Of a stretch of DNA of 64,000 bases, positions 2,531 through 39,090 are shown in pieces (position 1 is the first letter of the stretch; each line of letters begins with the position of its first letter). The notes under the pieces are model-generated. The model was given only the letters and a program-made list of their open reading frames with translations, ran no database searches and was not told where the DNA came from. The stretch lies in contig JAHELP010000001.1 in assembly GCA_024644105.1 (NCBI GenBank), positions 20,672-84,671 of the forward strand, in the 5' to 3' direction. Source of the stretch: Nitrosopumilus sp. (lineage in GTDB: Archaea; Thermoproteota; Nitrososphaeria; Nitrososphaerales; Nitrosopumilaceae). The position numbers and the translations under genes are program-made.

Positions 2531-3589
2531 ATGTATGATGTAAAGTTTGTATATGGAAAATTGAATCAGATCGCATTGGCTGAAGAGAAAGAAAAGAAGA
2601 AAGTAGTTGCATTACTATCTGGAGGATTAGATAGTCAACTAGCAGTAAGAATGATGCAAGAACAAGGCTTTGATGTTTCTGCAGTTGCAATTAAAACTCC
2701 ATTTTGTGATTTTGATTGTGGTAGAGGTTGTGGTTTTGAAATTAGAGAAAGAGCAGATGATCTTAATGTGAATTTAAAAACAGTTTATCTTGGTGATGAA
2801 TACATTGAGATGTTAAAACATCCAAAACATGGAATTGGTGCTGGATTTAATCCATGTGTAGATTGTAGAACTATGATGTTTGATGCAGCAAAAAAACACA
2901 TGGAAGAAATTGGTGCAGAATTTATTATTTCAGGTGAAGTATTAGGTCAACGTCCAATGAGTCAACATGCACCATCATTACACATTATTGAAAATGAATC
3001 AAACTTGAAAGGGAAAATTGTTAGGCCATTATCTGCAGGATTACTACCACCATCAGATGCTGAAAAAGATGGTTTGATTAAAAGAGAAAATCTAGGAATG
3101 ATTAGAGGAAGACAAAGAAAAATTCAAATGAAAATGGCAAAAGAATATGGAATTGAAAATCCACCAAATGCAGGTGGCGGATGTTTGTTAACAGAACCAC
3201 AATTTGGAATTAAGGCTAAAGATTTGTTTGATCATGTTGAAACACCAACAATAAATGAAATTGATTTATTGAAAATTGGTAGACATTTTAGATTAGATGA
3301 AGAAACAAAATTTGTTGTTGGAAGAAACAAGGATGAAAATGAAATGATTAAAGCATTGGCATTACCAGGAGATATTTTATTTGAGGCTAAAGACTACGTA
3401 GGACCAATTTCAATTTTACGTGGTAAGAATGCAAAGTTACATGTTGAATTTGCATCAGCAGTAACTTTGAGATATTCAGATGCACCAAACACTGAACAAG
3501 GTGTTGTTTCAGTAAAAAATGGAGATTCATCTGAAGAAATTACTACAGAATGTGCAGAAGAGCAATCTTATCTTAAATTTAGAATGTAG
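2531..3589 (+). CDS. PP-loop ATP pyrophosphatase, ThiI/MnmA-like tRNA sulfurtransferase family
   Basis: 352 aa. PP-loop 'LLSGGLDSQLA', 'NPCVDCRTMMF' and 'ISGEVLGQRPMSQ', as in ThiI-type adenylating enzymes. The exact subfamily cannot be decided by eye. Confidence 0.6.
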   Translation: MYDVKFVYGKLNQIALAEEKEKKKVVALLSGGLDSQLAVRMMQEQGFDVSAVAIKTPFCDFDCGRGCGFEIRERADDLNVNLKTVYLGDEYIEMLKHPKHGIGAGFNPCVDCRTMMFDAAKKHMEEIGAEFIISGEVLGQRPMSQHAPSLHIIENESNLKGKIVRPLSAGLLPPSDAEKDGLIKRENLGMIRGRQRKIQMKMAKEYGIENPPNAGGGCLLTEPQFGIKAKDLFDHVETPTINEIDLLKIGRHFRLDEETKFVVGRNKDENEMIKALALPGDILFEAKDYVGPISILRGKNAKLHVEFASAVTLRYSDAPNTEQGVVSVKNGDSSEEITTECAEEQSYLKFRM

Positions 3590-36056: not shown

Positions 36057-36431
36057 TTATTGATTACTTTTTTGAGCATCAAGTTTTGCATGGATAAAAT
36101 CAATAATTTTCAAATAATCTGCTCTTGGTTCTGTACTAATTAGAAATAGTTCATTTGTATTAATTGGAATACTAATCATTGAAACTAATTCATATTCTGT
36201 TATTGATGATTTTTCAGAACCAATTTTGTATGCTAAATTTGTGTAAAGATCTCTTTTTTGTAAAGCATAATGAATTGACATGTTTATCTCATCACCAACT
36301 AACATTTTCTCAACATTTTCTTTATGTCCTCCTGCAATCAACTCTCCTTTACTATTTGCAATACCTGCAAATCTCACTTGGGAATCTAAATCAAGTACTT
36401 GTTTTGTTAATTCTTCATAATTGATTGTCAT
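36057..36431 (-). CDS. Roadblock/LC7-like small protein, translationally coupled to amt
   Basis: 124 aa. 'LDSQVRFAGIANSKGELIAGGH' resembles the Roadblock/MglB pattern. Its ATG overlaps the amt stop (ATGA at 36428-36431). Confidence 0.5.
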   Translation of the reverse strand: MTINYEELTKQVLDLDSQVRFAGIANSKGELIAGGHKENVEKMLVGDEINMSIHYALQKRDLYTNLAYKIGSEKSSITEYELVSMISIPINTNELFLISTEPRADYLKIIDFIHAKLDAQKSNQ

Positions 36432-37756
36432 TTTTCATCCTTATCAGATTTCTTTTTGAAAAGTATTTCATCTTTTTCTTCTAATCTATCAGTGTAATCA
36501 TCCATATCCAACAAGAATTCTTCTTCATCTGAGTAAGCAGATTCAGCATGTTCGCTAATGTCCAAACCTATATCTTCCACTTCAGCAGAAACTCGAATTC
36601 CGATTGTGTGTTTTAGAATTTGTAATATGATCCATGTTCCTCCAAAGCCCATCGCTGCTGCAATACCAACACCTACTGCTTGAATCCATAGTTGATCAGG
36701 ATTTCCAAATAACAAACCATCTACCCCTCCAGGATTTATTGCAGTACTTGCAAAGATTCCTATAGCTAATGCACCAACAATTCCTGCAACACCGTGGACA
36801 GAGCTAACATCAAGTGCATCATCAATCTTTAGTTTTTCTTTGAATAACACTACTCCAGAGTATGAAATAACACCAATTGCAATTCCGATAATGAAAGCAT
36901 GTTCAGCACTAACAAATCCTGATGCAGGAGTAATTCCAGCAAGACCTGCAATTGCTCCGTTAATTGTGGCTACAACAGAAGGTTTGCCAGTTCTAATCCA
37001 TGAAAGACCTGCCCAAATTAAAGCAGAAACAGATGATGCCATATGAGTTACAATTACTGTGTTACCAGCTACACCACCTGAAGCAGATAATGCACTTCCT
37101 GCGTTAAAACCAAACCAACCAAGCCATAGCAAAGAAGATCCAAGAACTGCAAGTGGAATACTATGAGGAATCATAATAGCAGGACCATAGTTACGTCGTT
37201 TTCCAAGAACTAGTGCGGCAGCAAGTGCTGCCATTCCAACACTGGTGTGAATTACGATACCACCAGCAAAGTCAACAACACCAAGATCTGATAACCAACC
37301 TCCTCCCCAAACCCAGTGAACAAGTGGATAATAGATTAGCATTGACCATGCTGCAATGAATATGATAAATGAACTGAACTTCATTCTTTCAGCAATTGTT
37401 CCAGTAAGTAAAAGTGGAGTAATTGCTGCAAACATTAATTGAAACTTAACAAACAAGACACCAGGAATTGTTGGGGCATACTGCTCTAATGGAGCATCTG
37501 ATGGAACTCCTTTAAGAAATACCCAATCAAAATTTCCAACTAATCCTGCGGTTGTTTCACCAAAGGAAATACTAAATCCAAATACAAACCACATGACACT
37601 CAAAAGTGCCAATCCAAAAAAGATTTGCATAAAAATTGATGCTGCATTCTTCTTTCTCAAAAGTCCAGATTCAAAAAGACCTAATGCAGGGATCATCAGC
37701 AATACAAGACTACCTGCTACAAGCATCCATGCTGTATCCCCAGAATCTAGAACCAT
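36428..37756 (-). CDS. amt: Ammonium transporter (Amt family) with an acidic C-terminal tail
   Basis: 442 aa with about 11 TM helices. Contains 'VDFAGGIVIHTSVGMAALA', 'WFGFNAGSA' and 'DDALDVSSVHGVAGIVGA'. The C-terminal ~60 aa is rich in D/E. Confidence 0.95.
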   Translation of the reverse strand: MVLDSGDTAWMLVAGSLVLLMIPALGLFESGLLRKKNAASIFMQIFFGLALLSVMWFVFGFSISFGETTAGLVGNFDWVFLKGVPSDAPLEQYAPTIPGVLFVKFQLMFAAITPLLLTGTIAERMKFSSFIIFIAAWSMLIYYPLVHWVWGGGWLSDLGVVDFAGGIVIHTSVGMAALAAALVLGKRRNYGPAIMIPHSIPLAVLGSSLLWLGWFGFNAGSALSASGGVAGNTVIVTHMASSVSALIWAGLSWIRTGKPSVVATINGAIAGLAGITPASGFVSAEHAFIIGIAIGVISYSGVVLFKEKLKIDDALDVSSVHGVAGIVGALAIGIFASTAINPGGVDGLLFGNPDQLWIQAVGVGIAAAMGFGGTWIILQILKHTIGIRVSAEVEDIGLDISEHAESAYSDEEEFLLDMDDYTDRLEEKDEILFKKKSDKDEK

Positions 37757-37795
37757 GATAAAAAATTGAATTTTAAACTAATAACAATGACTAAA

Positions 37796-37828
37796 TTTGA
37801 TTATCATTTGATTATCATTTGATTATCA
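37796..37828. promoter_or_regulatory. Perfect 3 x 11-bp tandem repeat TTTGATTATCA in the amt/PII divergent intergenic region
   Basis: Units at 37796-37806, 37807-37817 and 37818-37828, followed by a partial AAATCA. A TATA-like AAATTATATTTG at about 37837-37848 lies ~29 nt before the PII ATG (37871). Confidence 0.9.
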
Positions 37829-37870: not shown

Positions 37871-38200
37871 ATGCTCAAAATTGAAGTCATACTTGGAAAC
37901 AATGATGTTATGGCTATTAGTGAAGGATTAAAAAAAATTGGTATTGGGGGACTTACTGTTTCTAAAGTAAGAGGAAGAGGGAAGAAACCAGGTCCGGAAA
38001 TTCACGCATCTAAAGGAAGTGAAATTTTTGTGCCTCAATTTAGTGAAAAATACAGATTGGAAGCCATAATTTCAGATACGCAAGAAGATGAAGCAATATC
38101 AATTATTAAAAAAAATGGGAGAGTAGGTAAAATCTTTGTTTCTCAAATTTTACGGGCAGTGGATATTGCTACTGATGACGAAGGAGAATCTACAATCTAA
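37871..38200 (+). CDS. PII-family signal protein with a divergent T-loop
   Basis: 109 aa. 'KIEVIL...GLTVSKVRGRGKK...RLEAIISDTQEDEAISII...GKIFVSQI' has the PII beta-alpha-beta topology. The T-loop reads 'GRGKKPGPEIHASKGSEIFVPQF', with no Tyr at the usual modification site. Confidence 0.75.
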   Translation: MLKIEVILGNNDVMAISEGLKKIGIGGLTVSKVRGRGKKPGPEIHASKGSEIFVPQFSEKYRLEAIISDTQEDEAISIIKKNGRVGKIFVSQILRAVDIATDDEGESTI

Positions 38201-38204
38201 AGAT

Positions 38205-38342
38205 ATGAACATGAAGTTTATTCGTAAAAGTAAATTGTTTCATAGAGAAGAGATGAAACCATTAAACTCAAAAGATTTTCTTAAGGTTCTTGTAATTGCA
38301 GGAATCATTGTTATACCACTTCTTGTTGGTTTAGCTGTATGA
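38205..38342 (+). CDS. Micro-ORF encoding a single-TM peptide (45 aa)
   Basis: MNMKFIRKSKLFHREEMKPLNSKDFLKVLVIAGIIVIPLLVGLAV*. This is the ATG-initiated 3' part of track ORF 38136-38342, starting 5 nt after the PII stop. Confidence 0.3.
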   Translation: MNMKFIRKSKLFHREEMKPLNSKDFLKVLVIAGIIVIPLLVGLAV

Positions 38343-38434: not shown

Positions 38435-39016
38435 TTAATACTCACCAAAATTATTTTCATAAATAATTGTAGGATTCTTTAGTTGTTTTTCAATTGTTGG
38501 TAAGGATTTCATGATGCAATTATTTACAAAAGCACTGAAAGATTTGATTTGGTAATATTCTCGTAATGTTTCTTTATTGTTTTCATAAATAATTTGTAAT
38601 TTATTGAGAGTAAATTTTTGTAACGGAACAAATCTACTTCGTTTTGGTAATTGTCTTTTTTCTAAATTTTTATCAATTGAGATTTCAAGATCTTGCTCTC
38701 CGTCAAGTGTATCCATATCTACAACTTCCTCCATTTCAGAGACGAAAATTTTTCCTCCATGAATGGTTGATAGTCCAGAATTTTTAGAAATCATTTCAAC
38801 AAGTTTTCTAGCATCTTTATCAGAAACTACCATTTCGATTTTTGCCAATGGTACTGACTTTAAACCAGTAGAACCAACATGTGATCCTTGTGATTCATCA
38901 TAAATATGGCTATCATCTAAATTTCGTTTATCAATTATGTATGTCCCTATTTCATTCAAATTTGTTTTAATTATAGGAAAATTTTTTCGCTTAATTATAG
39001 CCTCTATTTTTTTCAC
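38435..39016 (-). CDS. PII-like domain fused to an uncharacterised ~90-aa C-terminal domain
   Basis: 193 aa. The N-terminal 'MKKIEAIIKR...KIEMVVSDKDARKLVEMISKN...GGKIFVSEMEEVV' is canonical PII framing, but the T-loop is replaced by 'DKRNLDDSHIYDESQGSHVGSTGLKSV'. I recognise no family for residues ~105-193. Confidence 0.65.
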   Translation of the reverse strand: MKKIEAIIKRKNFPIIKTNLNEIGTYIIDKRNLDDSHIYDESQGSHVGSTGLKSVPLAKIEMVVSDKDARKLVEMISKNSGLSTIHGGKIFVSEMEEVVDMDTLDGEQDLEISIDKNLEKRQLPKRSRFVPLQKFTLNKLQIIYENNKETLREYYQIKSFSAFVNNCIMKSLPTIEKQLKNPTIIYENNFGEY

Positions 39017-39090
39017 AAATAAAATTCAGAGAAAGACCCTATTTATCAGAAATGGTTATTTTCAAGGCTAGAATTGGCTTTCAAACCTAA

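What the first reader, a model, noticed from the sequence alone, without database searches (positions are those of the whole stretch)
38435..39016. PII domain with a rewritten T-loop fused to an unknown ~90-aa C-terminal domain
Residues 1-105 keep the PII framework ('MKKIEAIIKR', 'KIEMVVSDKDARKLVEMI', 'GGKIFVSEMEEVV'). The T-loop, which mediates target binding in canonical PII, is replaced by 'DKRNLDDSHIYDESQGSHVGSTGLKSV'.

Residues ~105-193 ('...LPKRSRFVPLQKFTLNKLQIIYENNKETLREYYQIKSFSAFVNNCIMKSLPTIEKQL...') match nothing I recognise.

PII proteins are normally stand-alone ~112-aa trimers. A C-terminal fusion implies a built-in output or localisation domain.
Basis: partly seen in the sequence, partly recalled or inferred. 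Interest (0 to 1): 0.6.

Follow-up and report, generated by a model that had tools for sequence, protein, structure and literature searches.

The report
PII protein with DNA-binding-like tail
Marine ammonia-oxidising archaea encode a conserved nitrogen-signalling (PII-type) protein with an extra small basic domain that probably binds three evenly spaced palindromes in the neighbouring ammonium-transporter promoter, which makes it a testable candidate for the unknown regulator of ammonium uptake, although DNA binding has not been shown.

Summary
The 193-aa ORF (38435-39016, minus strand, GTG start) is real and is not a frameshift artefact. More than 1000 database proteins share its length and architecture.

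Residues 1-112 are a genuine PII fold. However, most canonical ATP/2-oxoglutarate ligand side chains are replaced (T29D, Q39Y, K58L, G87H, R101D, R103D). A variable acidic linker (113-124) leads to a basic domain (125-181, pI about 9.9), which is the best-conserved part of the protein.

This tail has no Pfam, NCBIfam or PDB sequence match. New here: it is homologous (hhalign 99%) to free-standing 57-70-aa proteins of related archaea, and these give weak ribbon-helix-helix signals.

The gene occurs only in Nitrosopumilaceae and a sister family. Three 11-bp-spaced TGATnATCA palindromes lie in the amt1/PII divergent promoter and occur nowhere else in this genome. Across genomes they co-occur with the gene:
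- They persist where the gene is unlinked from amt1.
- They are missing from four genera that keep amt1-PII but lack the gene.

Best reading (about 0.5): a one-component, PII-based DNA-binding regulator of amt1. DNA binding and the sensed ligand are inferred, not shown.

The scan reached a similar reading on six other genomes. No paper describing the fusion was found.

The parts
38435..39016 (-). Gene for the 193-aa PII-CTD fusion protein (GTG start at 39016, stop at 38435-38437)
   Evidence: ORF list and sequence. The start position is conserved, GTG or ATG, in orthologues. More than 1000 homologues of the same length.
38681..39016 (-). PII-like domain, residues 1-112 (b1 2-9, a1 10-23, b2 27-33, T-loop, b3 57-64, a2 66-79, b4 90-94, C-loop motif TLxGxxDLE)
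   Evidence: PF00543 39.6 bits. GlnK1 7p4v E 2.5e-8. AlphaFold model and Foldseek probability 1.00 to GlnK/GlnB. Family alignment.
38849..38914 (-). Diverged T-loop, residues 35-56 (DSHIYDESQGSHVGSTGLKSVP). Lacks G35, G37, Q39, R47 and Y51 of canonical PII. Family motif GS(R/K)xGSTGLKS.
   Evidence: Residue-by-residue alignment to GlnK1. Conservation in the family alignment. pLDDT below 50 in the model, as is usual for T-loops.
38645..38680 (-). Acidic flexible linker, residues 113-124. Its length varies from about 8 to about 70 aa among orthologues.
   Evidence: Mean pairwise identity 0.14 and length variation. pLDDT below 50. pI 4.1 for residues 100-124.
38474..38644 (-). Conserved basic C-terminal domain, residues 125-181. 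Basic extended arm KRSRFV, then helices 131-146, 148-155 and 160-180. Invariant R128, V130, L132, Q133, T136, Y144, C167.
   Evidence: Alignments A1 and A2. AlphaFold on the domain alone, pLDDT 82. Highest conservation in the protein, 0.61. pI 9.9. hhalign 99.1% to stand-alone 57-70-aa proteins.
38438..38473 (-). Poorly conserved C-terminal tail, residues 182-193
   Evidence: Mean pairwise identity 0.29. pLDDT below 50.
37795..37828 (.). Candidate operator: three perfect 11-bp-spaced units, each holding the 9-bp palindrome TGATTATCA (37798-37806, 37809-37817, 37820-37828). It lies between the divergent amt1 and PII promoters, about 10 bp upstream of the TATA-like AATTATATTT of the PII gene.
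   Evidence: Repeat finder. The exact tandem arrangement is unique in the 1.29-Mb genome. Conserved in 28 of 30 loci from genomes that carry the fusion gene, and at background level in 9 loci from genomes that lack it.
37871..38200 (+). Stand-alone 109-aa PII paralogue, convergent (tail-to-tail) partner of the fusion gene and directly downstream of the operator
   Evidence: PF00543 54.9 bits. The convergent pairing is conserved in nearly all loci, with abutting or overlapping stops in several genera.
36428..37756 (-). Ammonium transporter (Amt1-type, 442 aa), transcribed divergently from the operator
   Evidence: PF00909 384 bits. Synteny. Same-genus genomes without the fusion gene lack this Amt paralogue.
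39017..39090 (-). Own promoter region of the fusion gene. TATA-like ATAAATA at 39040-39046. The upstream half-palindrome seen in relatives (TGATAATGa) is degenerate here (TGAAAATAA).
   Evidence: Upstream comparison of 29 loci. Three exact tandem palindromes at this position in L033, and one or two in L031 and L035.

Best explanation
The gene encodes a lineage-specific member of the PII family with three parts.
1. An N-terminal PII-fold domain (1-112). It keeps the trimer-type scaffold but has lost most side chains that bind ATP/ADP and Mg-2-oxoglutarate in GlnB/GlnK.
2. A flexible acidic linker.
3. A small basic domain (125-181). It descends from a family of free-standing 57-70-aa proteins with ribbon-helix-helix-like features.

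Most likely the basic domain dimerises and binds the three TGATnATCA palindromes, spaced one helical turn apart, that lie between the divergent promoters of the low-affinity ammonium transporter gene amt1 and its PII partner. In some lineages it would also bind similar sites in its own promoter. The PII-like domain would then act as a built-in sensor or oligomerisation platform. It could set DNA affinity in response to a still unknown ligand, a modification, or contact with the partner PII. Two trimers bridged by three tail dimers would match the three sites.

Shown: the gene, its conservation, the PII fold, loss of canonical ligand residues, homology of the tail to stand-alone proteins, and the operator with its phyletic co-occurrence with the gene.

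Inferred: DNA binding, ribbon-helix-helix fold, oligomeric state, the signal sensed, and the direction of regulation.
For: Gene and fold.

Ligand residues: judged against the Methanococcales GlnK structures (PMC8395244), the alignments give T29D, Q39Y/F, K58L, G87H, R101D/E and a variable R103. K90 and F92 are kept. That paper also shows that a free C-terminus is needed for 2-OG binding.

Tail properties:
- It is the most conserved region (0.61 identity against 0.47-0.53 for the PII body and 0.14 for the linker).
- It is basic (pI 9.9).
- It models confidently as an extended arm plus a helical hairpin (pLDDT 82).

Ribbon-helix-helix leads, each weak:
- RHH proteins among the top structural matches: TraM 3on0 Z 3.6, rmsd 2.4 A over 47 residues; ParB 3no7; MazE6; ParD2; Rv0298.
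- Language-model neighbours RHH_1, MetJ, RHH_6 and CB_ParB_C at 0.88-0.90.
- Stand-alone homologues (hhalign 99.1% to the tail) align to an RHH_1 profile over strand, helix A and helix B with P 0.003. They also give a sub-threshold RHH_5 hit.

Operator:
- Three 9-bp palindromes at 11-bp spacing. Half-sites 5 bp apart fit a reader that occupies a single major groove.
- The exact tandem arrangement is unique in this genome.

Co-occurrence of operator and gene:
- Of 101 family genomes, 21 have both, 4 have the gene only (the two of these examined, G215 and G209, have weakened sites), 5 have a motif only (all chance hits away from amt) and 71 have neither.
- In genus g2 the gene is unlinked, yet the operator stays at amt1-PII.
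- Four genera keep amt1-PII but lack both the gene and the operator. Their best tandem pair has 5-8 mismatches, which equals the shuffled background, against 0-2 in 28 of 30 loci from genomes with the gene.
- On an Amt1 tree these lineages fall in at least two separate places.

Supporting parallels:
- The gene's own promoter has three exact palindromes in one lineage.
- A stand-alone homologue sits behind its own array of four repeats spaced 11, 11 and 18 bp apart, next to a TATA box.

Physiology: amt1 expression falls at low ammonia (PMC7490402). No NrpR regulatory domain was found in this genome.
Against: - No experiment shows DNA binding.
- The tail profile itself has no significant similarity to RHH_1 (hhalign probability 0.1-0.2%) and no Pfam hit.
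- All structural matches have Z below 4, and any helical hairpin could give them.
- In the helix-A register, the positions that would face DNA in a classical ribbon are S127, F129 and P131, which is atypical. The monomer model shows no strand.
- A three-fold PII platform and two-fold tail dimers do not match in symmetry.
- Co-occurrence may partly reflect inheritance of the locus as a block. It rests on few independent events and on an Amt1 gene tree, not a species tree.
- In this window's own promoter the motif is degenerate.
- One genome with the gene (G209) has only a weak operator.
- Another, unlinked transcription factor could bind the palindromes.
Confidence: 0.5

Rival explanations
1. 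The tail is a protein-protein interaction or oligomerisation module, not a DNA binder. It would tether a PII-like trimer to Amt1 (whose C-terminal tail is long and acidic), to the convergently encoded partner PII, or to another copy of itself. The palindromes would be bound by an unrelated transcription factor.
For: - The gene is almost always tail-to-tail with a stand-alone PII gene and usually lies next to amt1.
- PII proteins classically act through protein contacts.
- The tail is basic and the Amt1 C-terminus is acidic.
- Sequence tests for RHH membership of the tail itself are negative.
- The top structural matches also include non-DNA helical dimerisation modules such as ZapA, the PKA D/D domain and Tim proteins.
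Against: - In genus g2 the gene is not near amt1, yet it is retained together with the operator.
- The operator disappears exactly where the gene is missing although amt1-PII remains.
- Stand-alone homologues of the tail occur without any PII or Amt neighbour. One of them lies behind tandem repeats in its own promoter (spacing 11, 11 and 18 bp), as autoregulated small DNA binders do.
- The canonical T-loop residue that plugs Amt (R47) is absent.
Confidence: 0.3
2. It is functionally an ordinary GlnK-type regulator of the adjacent ammonium transporter. It would sense ATP/ADP/2-oxoglutarate and block Amt1 through its T-loop. The tail would only modulate stability or localisation.
For: PF00543 match, GlnK as the best PDB relative, and adjacency to amt. 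Sources name it 'P-II family nitrogen regulator'.
Against: - Five of the seven side-chain ligands for ATP/2-OG are replaced. Two of the replacements put acidic residues where phosphate-binding arginines sit.
- T-loop R47 and Y51 are absent.
- NCBIfam GlnB/GlnK equivalog scores are 26 and 23 bits against cut-offs of 202 and 181.
- A blocked C-terminus abolishes 2-OG binding in GlnK (PMC8395244).
- The tail is the most conserved region, which a passive appendage would not be.
- A separate stand-alone PII already occupies the GlnK slot next to amt1.
Confidence: 0.1
3. The fusion is an artefact: a frameshift, a mis-assembly or a read-through joining a PII gene to a separate small gene.
For: In a few genomes the frame is interrupted: G060 is split, G196 has an in-frame TGA, G460 and G455 have stops. 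Gene callers sometimes report 99-133-aa fragments.
Against: One uninterrupted frame of about 190-240 aa covers both domains in 7 genera and a sister family, including many closed genomes. More than 1000 database proteins have the same architecture. Linker length varies, but the frame is always kept.
Confidence: 0.01

Closest known systems
GlnK/GlnB PII signal proteins (Pfam PF00543), e.g. GlnK1 of Methanothermococcus thermolithotrophicus (7p4v) and Methanocaldococcus jannaschii (2j9c, 7p52)
   Same: Same fold and length of the core domain, a T-loop of canonical length, retained K90/F92 and the B-loop GGK, and a gene next to an ammonium transporter.
   Different: - 193 aa rather than about 112 aa, so there is no free C-terminus.
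- T29, Q39, K58, G87, R101 and R103 are replaced, and R47 and Y51 are absent.
- It carries an extra conserved basic domain.
- It scores far below the GlnB/GlnK equivalog cut-offs.
NikR (ribbon-helix-helix DNA-binding domain fused to a ferredoxin-like, ACT-type ligand-binding domain)
   Same: Same design logic: a small two-fold DNA reader joined to a beta-alpha-beta regulatory domain that oligomerises and senses a small ligand. This genome has one such protein (RHH_1 hit in a 137-aa frame). The comparison rests on established knowledge of NikR.
   Different: The domain order is reversed. The regulatory domain is PII, not ACT. NikR is a tetramer with matched symmetry, whereas PII is trimeric. 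RHH membership of the tail here is unproven.
Ribbon-helix-helix repressors with tandem operators (MetJ metboxes, Arc/Mnt, CopG, omega, plasmid ParB/ParG, TraM)
   Same: - Small size and a basic N-terminal arm followed by two helices with an S-x-S cap before the last helix.
- Top, though weak, structural and embedding neighbours.
- Candidate operator made of short palindromes repeated at about one helical turn.
   Different: - No significant sequence or profile match for the tail itself.
- An extra 8-residue segment or short helix between helices A and B.
- Atypical residues at ribbon positions.
- Dimeric ribbon not demonstrated.
Indirect PII control of transcription (PII-PipX-NtcA in cyanobacteria, GlnK-TnrA in Bacillus, NrpR in methanogens)
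   Same: The same physiological task: coupling nitrogen status to transcription of ammonium-assimilation genes. This is established knowledge (cyanobacterial network reviewed in PMC8042125).
   Different: In those systems PII never touches DNA and works through separate partner proteins. NrpR senses 2-OG itself, and its regulatory domain was not found in this genome. Here the PII domain and the putative DNA reader are one polypeptide.
Plant PII with C-terminal Q-loop extension
   Same: A precedent for a C-terminal addition that gives PII a new input (glutamine sensing; PMC5768801).
   Different: The Q-loop is a short segment that folds back onto the PII body. Here a linker of 12-70 aa carries an independently folding domain of about 60 aa that also has stand-alone relatives.

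Membership tests
PII (GlnB/GlnK) family, PF00543 | Significant match to the family profile | tested here: met
   PF00543 39.6 bits against a cut-off of 25. 35 PDB PII sequences hit, the best at E 2.5e-8.
PII (GlnB/GlnK) family, PF00543 | Double beta-alpha-beta ferredoxin-like fold with a T-loop between b2 and b3 | tested here: met
   The AlphaFold model has b1-a1-b2-(loop 36-52)-b3-a2-b4. Foldseek probability 1.00 and TM about 0.7 to GlnK/GlnB/GlnZ.
PII (GlnB/GlnK) family, PF00543 | Side chains binding ATP/ADP (T29, Q39, G87, K90, R101, R103; F92 stacks on the adenine) | tested here: not met
   T29D, Q39Y, G87H, R101D and R103D. Only K90 and F92 are kept (alignment; residue list from PMC8395244; family conservation).
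PII (GlnB/GlnK) family, PF00543 | Mg-2-oxoglutarate site (Q39 side chain, K58 and R9 salt bridges, free C-terminus) | tested here: not met
   Q39Y/F, K58L, R9K. The C-terminus continues into the linker.
PII (GlnB/GlnK) family, PF00543 | T-loop functional residues (Y51 uridylylation/adenylylation site, R47 that inserts into Amt) | tested here: not met
   Y51 aligns with G51 and R47 with V47. G48-S49 is present, but its role is unknown.
PII (GlnB/GlnK) family, PF00543 | Stand-alone protein of about 112 aa forming homotrimers | tested here: not met
   Length is 193 aa in this window, and 177-225 aa in the orthologues examined (open frames up to 243 aa in the sister family). Trimer formation is not testable with these tools.
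GlnB/GlnK equivalogs (NCBIfam NF008111, NF007946) | Score above the curated equivalog cut-off | tested here: not met
   26.4 and 23.0 bits against cut-offs of 202 and 181.
Ribbon-helix-helix superfamily (Met_repress clan: RHH_1, RHH_5, MetJ, Arc, ParG) | Sequence or profile similarity to an RHH family | tested here: inconclusive
   - The tail gets no Pfam hit.
- hhalign of the tail against a 29-sequence archaeal RHH_1 alignment gives probability 0.1-0.2%.
- Stand-alone homologues (99.1% to the tail) give probability 9.6% and P 0.003 over the full strand-helix-helix span.
- They also give RHH_5 at E 0.04, 14 bits against a cut-off of 26.
Ribbon-helix-helix superfamily (Met_repress clan: RHH_1, RHH_5, MetJ, Arc, ParG) | Strand-helix-turn-helix topology of about 45 residues | tested here: inconclusive
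   The monomer model shows an extended arm (125-130), helix 131-146, a short helix 148-155 and helix 160-180. RHH chains are among the best structural matches, but all have Z of 3.6 or less.
Ribbon-helix-helix superfamily (Met_repress clan: RHH_1, RHH_5, MetJ, Arc, ParG) | Intertwined dimer whose two N-terminal strands form the DNA-reading ribbon | not testable with these tools
   No multimer prediction was available. It needs AlphaFold-Multimer/AF3 or an experimental structure.
Ribbon-helix-helix superfamily (Met_repress clan: RHH_1, RHH_5, MetJ, Arc, ParG) | Binding to short palindromic or direct repeats arranged in tandem | not testable with these tools
   Only circumstantial evidence exists: the unique 3 x 11-bp palindrome array and its co-occurrence with the gene. 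Binding itself needs EMSA or footprinting.

The most novel reading that the evidence does not exclude
This would be the first PII-family protein that acts directly as a transcription factor. A PII-like sensor platform would carry ribbon-helix-helix-type DNA readers, assemble (for example as two trimers joined by three tail dimers) on three phased palindromes, and switch the low-affinity ammonium transporter operon of marine ammonia-oxidising archaea in response to a non-canonical signal. That would fill the empty position of nitrogen regulator in this globally important group.
Probability: 0.4. Interest if true: 0.85.

Novelty: new variant of a known kind. Interest (0 to 1): 0.66.

Why it matters
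Ammonia-oxidising archaea control a large share of marine nitrification. Ammonia is both their fuel and their nitrogen source.

Their low-affinity transporter gene amt1 is known to be down-regulated at low ammonia and is lost in deep-sea lineages (PMC7490402). The regulator is unknown, and the methanogen-type regulator NrpR was not found in this genome.

This gene supplies a concrete candidate protein and a concrete 33-bp target that can be tested in vitro within days.

For the PII field, a PII domain wired directly to DNA, with its classical nucleotide/2-oxoglutarate site rebuilt, would be a new output mode. It would also prompt a search for a new ligand or signal.

Tried and rejected
Searches on the tail that gave nothing:
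- Pfam and NCBIfam, on the tail alone and on 25 orthologous tails.
- A profile search of PDB sequences. The best hit was E 0.45 to a bHLH basic region, judged to be chance.
- Foldseek on the tail model. The top row is the RHH protein ParB 3no7, but at E 7.8.
- VIA-align over 48,161 chains: all Z below 4.
- hhalign of the tail alignment against an RHH_1 alignment built from 29 archaeal loci: probability 0.09%, with a reversed control at 0.3%.
- A word-indexed profile search for short relatives returned only fragments of the same family.

Calls that failed:
- The first Atlas call failed because the sequence is not held, so a stored orthologue was used instead.
- No RNA holder was listed for the locus, so read laying was not attempted.

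Extra motif hits considered as regulon members and rejected:
- A site inside a transketolase-like coding region in genus g4.
- A site between convergent glnA and purK in G455.
- A site upstream of a TFB gene in G108 and one upstream of a cation antiporter in G116.
- These are single lineages with one or two mismatches.
- Five motif hits in genomes without the gene lie away from amt/PII and were judged to be chance.
- Two weak profile hits, G470 (which lies antisense inside a 603-aa gene) and G168, were judged spurious.

Other points:
- The frameshift or assembly artefact reading is rejected.
- An operon with the upstream J-domain gene is not conserved outside close relatives.
- Literature searches found no paper describing a PII fused to a DNA-binding domain or this archaeal fusion. 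That library is incomplete.
Full report
**Observation**

The window holds an uninterrupted 193-codon frame on the minus strand, 38435-39016. It starts with GTG three codons after an upstream stop.

Pfam assigns PF00543 (P-II) at 39.6 bits against a cut-off of 25. phmmer against PDB aligns residues 1-103 with archaeal GlnK1 (7p4v) at E 2.5e-8, with a single one-residue gap. An AlphaFold model built on 11 homologues gives the PII secondary structure with confident core elements: b1 2-9, a1 10-23, b2 27-33, a disordered loop 36-52, b3 57-64, a2 66-79 and b4 90-94. It matches GlnK, GlnB and GlnZ structures at Foldseek probability 1.00.

The remainder has no hit in Pfam, NCBIfam or PDB sequences.

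**Not an artefact**

A search of 5.8 billion proteins returns 1029 matches. Nearly all of the best 120 are 193 aa long, 79-100% identical and from Nitrosopumilus and relatives. Sources name them 'P-II family nitrogen regulator' or 'transcriptional regulator'.

Whole-genome searches with the C-terminal 88 residues find one copy per genome. In all but two broken copies (G060 split, G196 with an in-frame TGA) it lies inside an open frame of about 190-240 aa that also holds the PII domain. Hits occur in 33 of 56 genomes of the window's own family (seven genera) and in a sister family. Nothing was found in the other families sampled from the phylum. A profile search of the order finds it in 27 of 40 genomes of the family and in 11 of 11 genomes of the sister family. 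The start position is conserved, as GTG or ATG.

A few genomes carry broken copies: a split frame in G060, an in-frame TGA in G196, and stops in G455 and G460.

**Anatomy**

A family alignment and the models define four parts:
- A PII domain, residues 1-112, ending in a conserved TLxGxxDLE motif.
- An acidic linker, 113-124. It varies from about 8 to about 70 residues and is the least conserved part (mean pairwise identity 0.14).
- A basic domain, 125-181. It is the most conserved part (0.61, against 0.47-0.53 for the PII body and 0.37 for the T-loop), with pI 9.9 against 5.2 for the PII domain.
- A variable tail, 182-193.

Modelled alone with 25 orthologues, the basic domain reaches pLDDT 82. 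It consists of an extended basic arm (KRSRFV) followed by helices 131-146, 148-155 and 160-180.

**The PII domain is not a canonical sensor**

The ligand contacts in Methanococcales GlnK structures (PMC8395244) were compared with the alignment:
- Nucleotide ligands T29, Q39, G87, R101 and R103 are D, Y, H, D and D here.
- The 2-oxoglutarate ligands Q39 and K58 are Y and L, and R9 is K.
- Only K90 and F92 remain.

These substitutions recur across the family. The same paper shows that a blocked C-terminus abolishes 2-oxoglutarate binding. T-loop R47 and Y51 are also absent, although the loop keeps its length and a family-specific motif. The protein scores 26 and 23 bits against GlnB/GlnK equivalog cut-offs of 202 and 181.

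It is therefore a member of the PII fold family but fails the functional definition of GlnB/GlnK. What it senses is unknown.

**What the tail is**

Sequence tests on the tail itself were negative: no Pfam hit for any of 25 orthologous tails, no PDB sequence hit, and hhalign probability 0.1-0.2% against an RHH_1 alignment built from 29 archaeal genes.

Weak leads nevertheless converge on the ribbon-helix-helix class:
- The only Foldseek row of note is the RHH protein ParB 3no7, at E 7.8.
- RHH chains are over-represented among the best VIA-align rows: TraM at Z 3.6 with rmsd 2.4 A over 47 residues, ParB, MazE6 N-domain, ParD2 and Rv0298. All have Z below 4.
- Language-model neighbours include RHH_1, MetJ, RHH_6 and CB_ParB_C clusters at 0.88-0.90.

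The order-wide profile search added something new: free-standing 57-70-aa proteins in two other families of the order. They are clearly homologous to the tail (hhalign 99.1%, E 6e-19).

Their N-terminus reads like a textbook RHH strand (FKTVTLREKVIEEI). They align with the RHH_1 profile over strand, helix A and helix B, with an eight-residue insertion that corresponds to the extra short helix. The score is P 0.003, probability 9.6%. They also give a sub-threshold RHH_5 hit at E 0.04.

I read the tail as a diverged RHH-like module that was captured by a PII gene. Membership is not established, and in the fused form the ribbon positions S127, F129 and P131 are atypical.

**Context and candidate target**

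The gene is almost always convergent with a stand-alone PII gene of about 110 aa. In several genera their stop codons abut or overlap. In most genera that PII gene is divergent from an Amt1-type ammonium transporter gene.

In this window, three perfect units at 37795-37828 each hold the 9-bp palindrome TGATTATCA, spaced 11 bp apart. They lie between the two TATA-like elements. Related genomes keep two or three such palindromes. In the 1.29-Mb genome the exact tandem arrangement occurs only here. Half-sites 5 bp apart fit a reader that occupies one major groove, as RHH ribbons do, rather than a helix-turn-helix dimer. This last point is inference from established structural knowledge.

**Co-occurrence test**

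In 101 genomes of the family:
- 25 have the fusion gene and 26 have a tandem motif with at most one mismatch.
- 21 have both. In 18 of these 21 the motif lies within a few kb of the gene; the other three are the genus g2 genomes described below.
- 4 have the gene only. In the two of these whose locus I examined with an intact gene (G215, G209) the sites are weakened or degenerate; in G140 the best pair still has 2 mismatches, and G060 (split gene) was not scored.
- 5 have a motif only. All five are one-mismatch hits away from amt/PII and were judged to be chance.
- 71 have neither.

Much of this could be block inheritance, because same-genus genomes without the gene lack amt1 altogether. Two situations break the linkage:
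- In genus g2 the fusion gene lies elsewhere, paired with a different PII paralogue. The palindromes still sit between amt1 and its PII.
- Four genera (g14, g162, g166, g174; nine loci) keep the divergent amt1-PII pair but lack the fusion gene. Their intergenic regions have no such motif.

For that second case, the best tandem pair has 5-8 mismatches, the same as shuffled sequence. In loci from genomes with the gene it has 0-2 mismatches in 28 of 30. On an Amt1 tree these gene-less lineages fall in at least two places, one of them sister to g2 with 97/98 support. With the sister family also carrying the gene, at least two joint losses are implied. This is a gene tree with few events, so the evidence is suggestive, not conclusive.

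**Own promoters**

One lineage (G347) has three exact palindromes at 11-bp spacing directly upstream of the fusion gene. Two others have one or two. Most Nitrosopumilus genomes have a single TGATAATGa next to the TATA-like ATAAATA, and the copy in this window is degenerate.

The 57-aa stand-alone homologue lies behind four direct repeats (spacing 11, 11 and 18 bp) next to its own TATA-like box. This is the arrangement expected of a small autoregulated DNA binder.

**Physiological fit**

According to PMC7490402, Amt1 is the low-affinity transporter of marine ammonia oxidisers. Its expression is depressed at low ammonia or under starvation, and it is absent from deep-ocean lineages. PII homologues near amt1 have been noted (PMC4836417), but without mention of the extension.

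The NrpR regulatory domain was not found in this genome, which is 90% complete; the control search rang in methanogens. No paper in the searchable library describes a PII fused to a DNA-binding domain.

**Conclusion**

The best explanation, at about 0.5, is a one-component regulator. A rebuilt PII-like platform would control an RHH-like DNA reader that binds the phased palindromes of the amt1/PII promoter. A hexamer with three tail dimers matching three sites is an attractive but speculative geometry.

The main rival, at about 0.3, is a protein-interaction role for the tail with a different factor bound at the palindromes.

The same family was flagged and followed up on six other genomes in this scan, with similar readings. 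Those notes are not independent evidence.

New here:
- The stand-alone homologues and their bridge to RHH.
- The negative profile test for the tail itself.
- The genome-wide uniqueness of the operator.
- The unlinked and gene-less lineages that test co-occurrence.

Noticed in passing
window 38205-38342 (+): A 45-aa single-TM micro-ORF between the stand-alone PII gene and the fusion gene is conserved at 64-79% identity in 11 Nitrosopumilus loci. It may therefore be a real small membrane protein of the module.
   Followed up: partly
G000 loci L001, L004, L005 and window 37871-38200: All stand-alone PII paralogues of this genome also lack the phosphate-binding R101/R103 pair (for example ...DALDLCT..., ...SVLNIAS...). 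L001 still keeps the T29, G35, G37, Q39 and TGxxGDGK motifs. PII proteins of ammonia-oxidising archaea may bind nucleotides in a non-standard way in general.
   Followed up: partly
L123:2986-3159 (-) with upstream repeats 3188-3242; L122:2977-3189 (-): These are free-standing 57- and 70-aa homologues of the tail in other families of the order. The 57-aa gene lies behind four copies of TATTGCGGTA-like repeats spaced 11, 11 and 18 bp apart. Both genes overlap the 3' end of a convergent coiled-coil ORF.
   Followed up: partly
G455:C1:19830-23976 (not held as a locus): One genome carries the operator plus fusion-gene module twice, about 3.4 kb apart. One copy is interrupted by a TAG.
   Followed up: no
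L008 (G060) 1173-1767; L021 (G196) 1183-1764: The fusion gene is split by a frameshift in one closed genome.
   Followed up: partly
L024-L030, L034-L041: In several genera the stop codons of the convergent PII gene and the fusion gene abut or overlap by 4 nt. The two transcripts must therefore overlap at their 3' ends, which allows antisense coupling.
   Followed up: no
L073-L082 (G012, G182, G257, G287, G323): Five same-genus genomes have only the Amt2-type transporter (46-47% identity). They lack amt1, its PII, the operator and the fusion gene together. This fits the published loss of low-affinity amt in some marine lineages.
   Followed up: partly
L105, L106 (genus g174) amt-PII intergenic: Where the palindromes are missing, a different conserved element (CTGATAATGA(T/A)G...) sits in the amt1-PII intergenic region. 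It may be another operator.
   Followed up: no
L039 5649-6025 (sister family): Between the fusion gene and a divergent amt (43% identity) lie three TTATCA half-sites, two of them 11 bp apart. This may be a diverged form of the operator.
   Followed up: no
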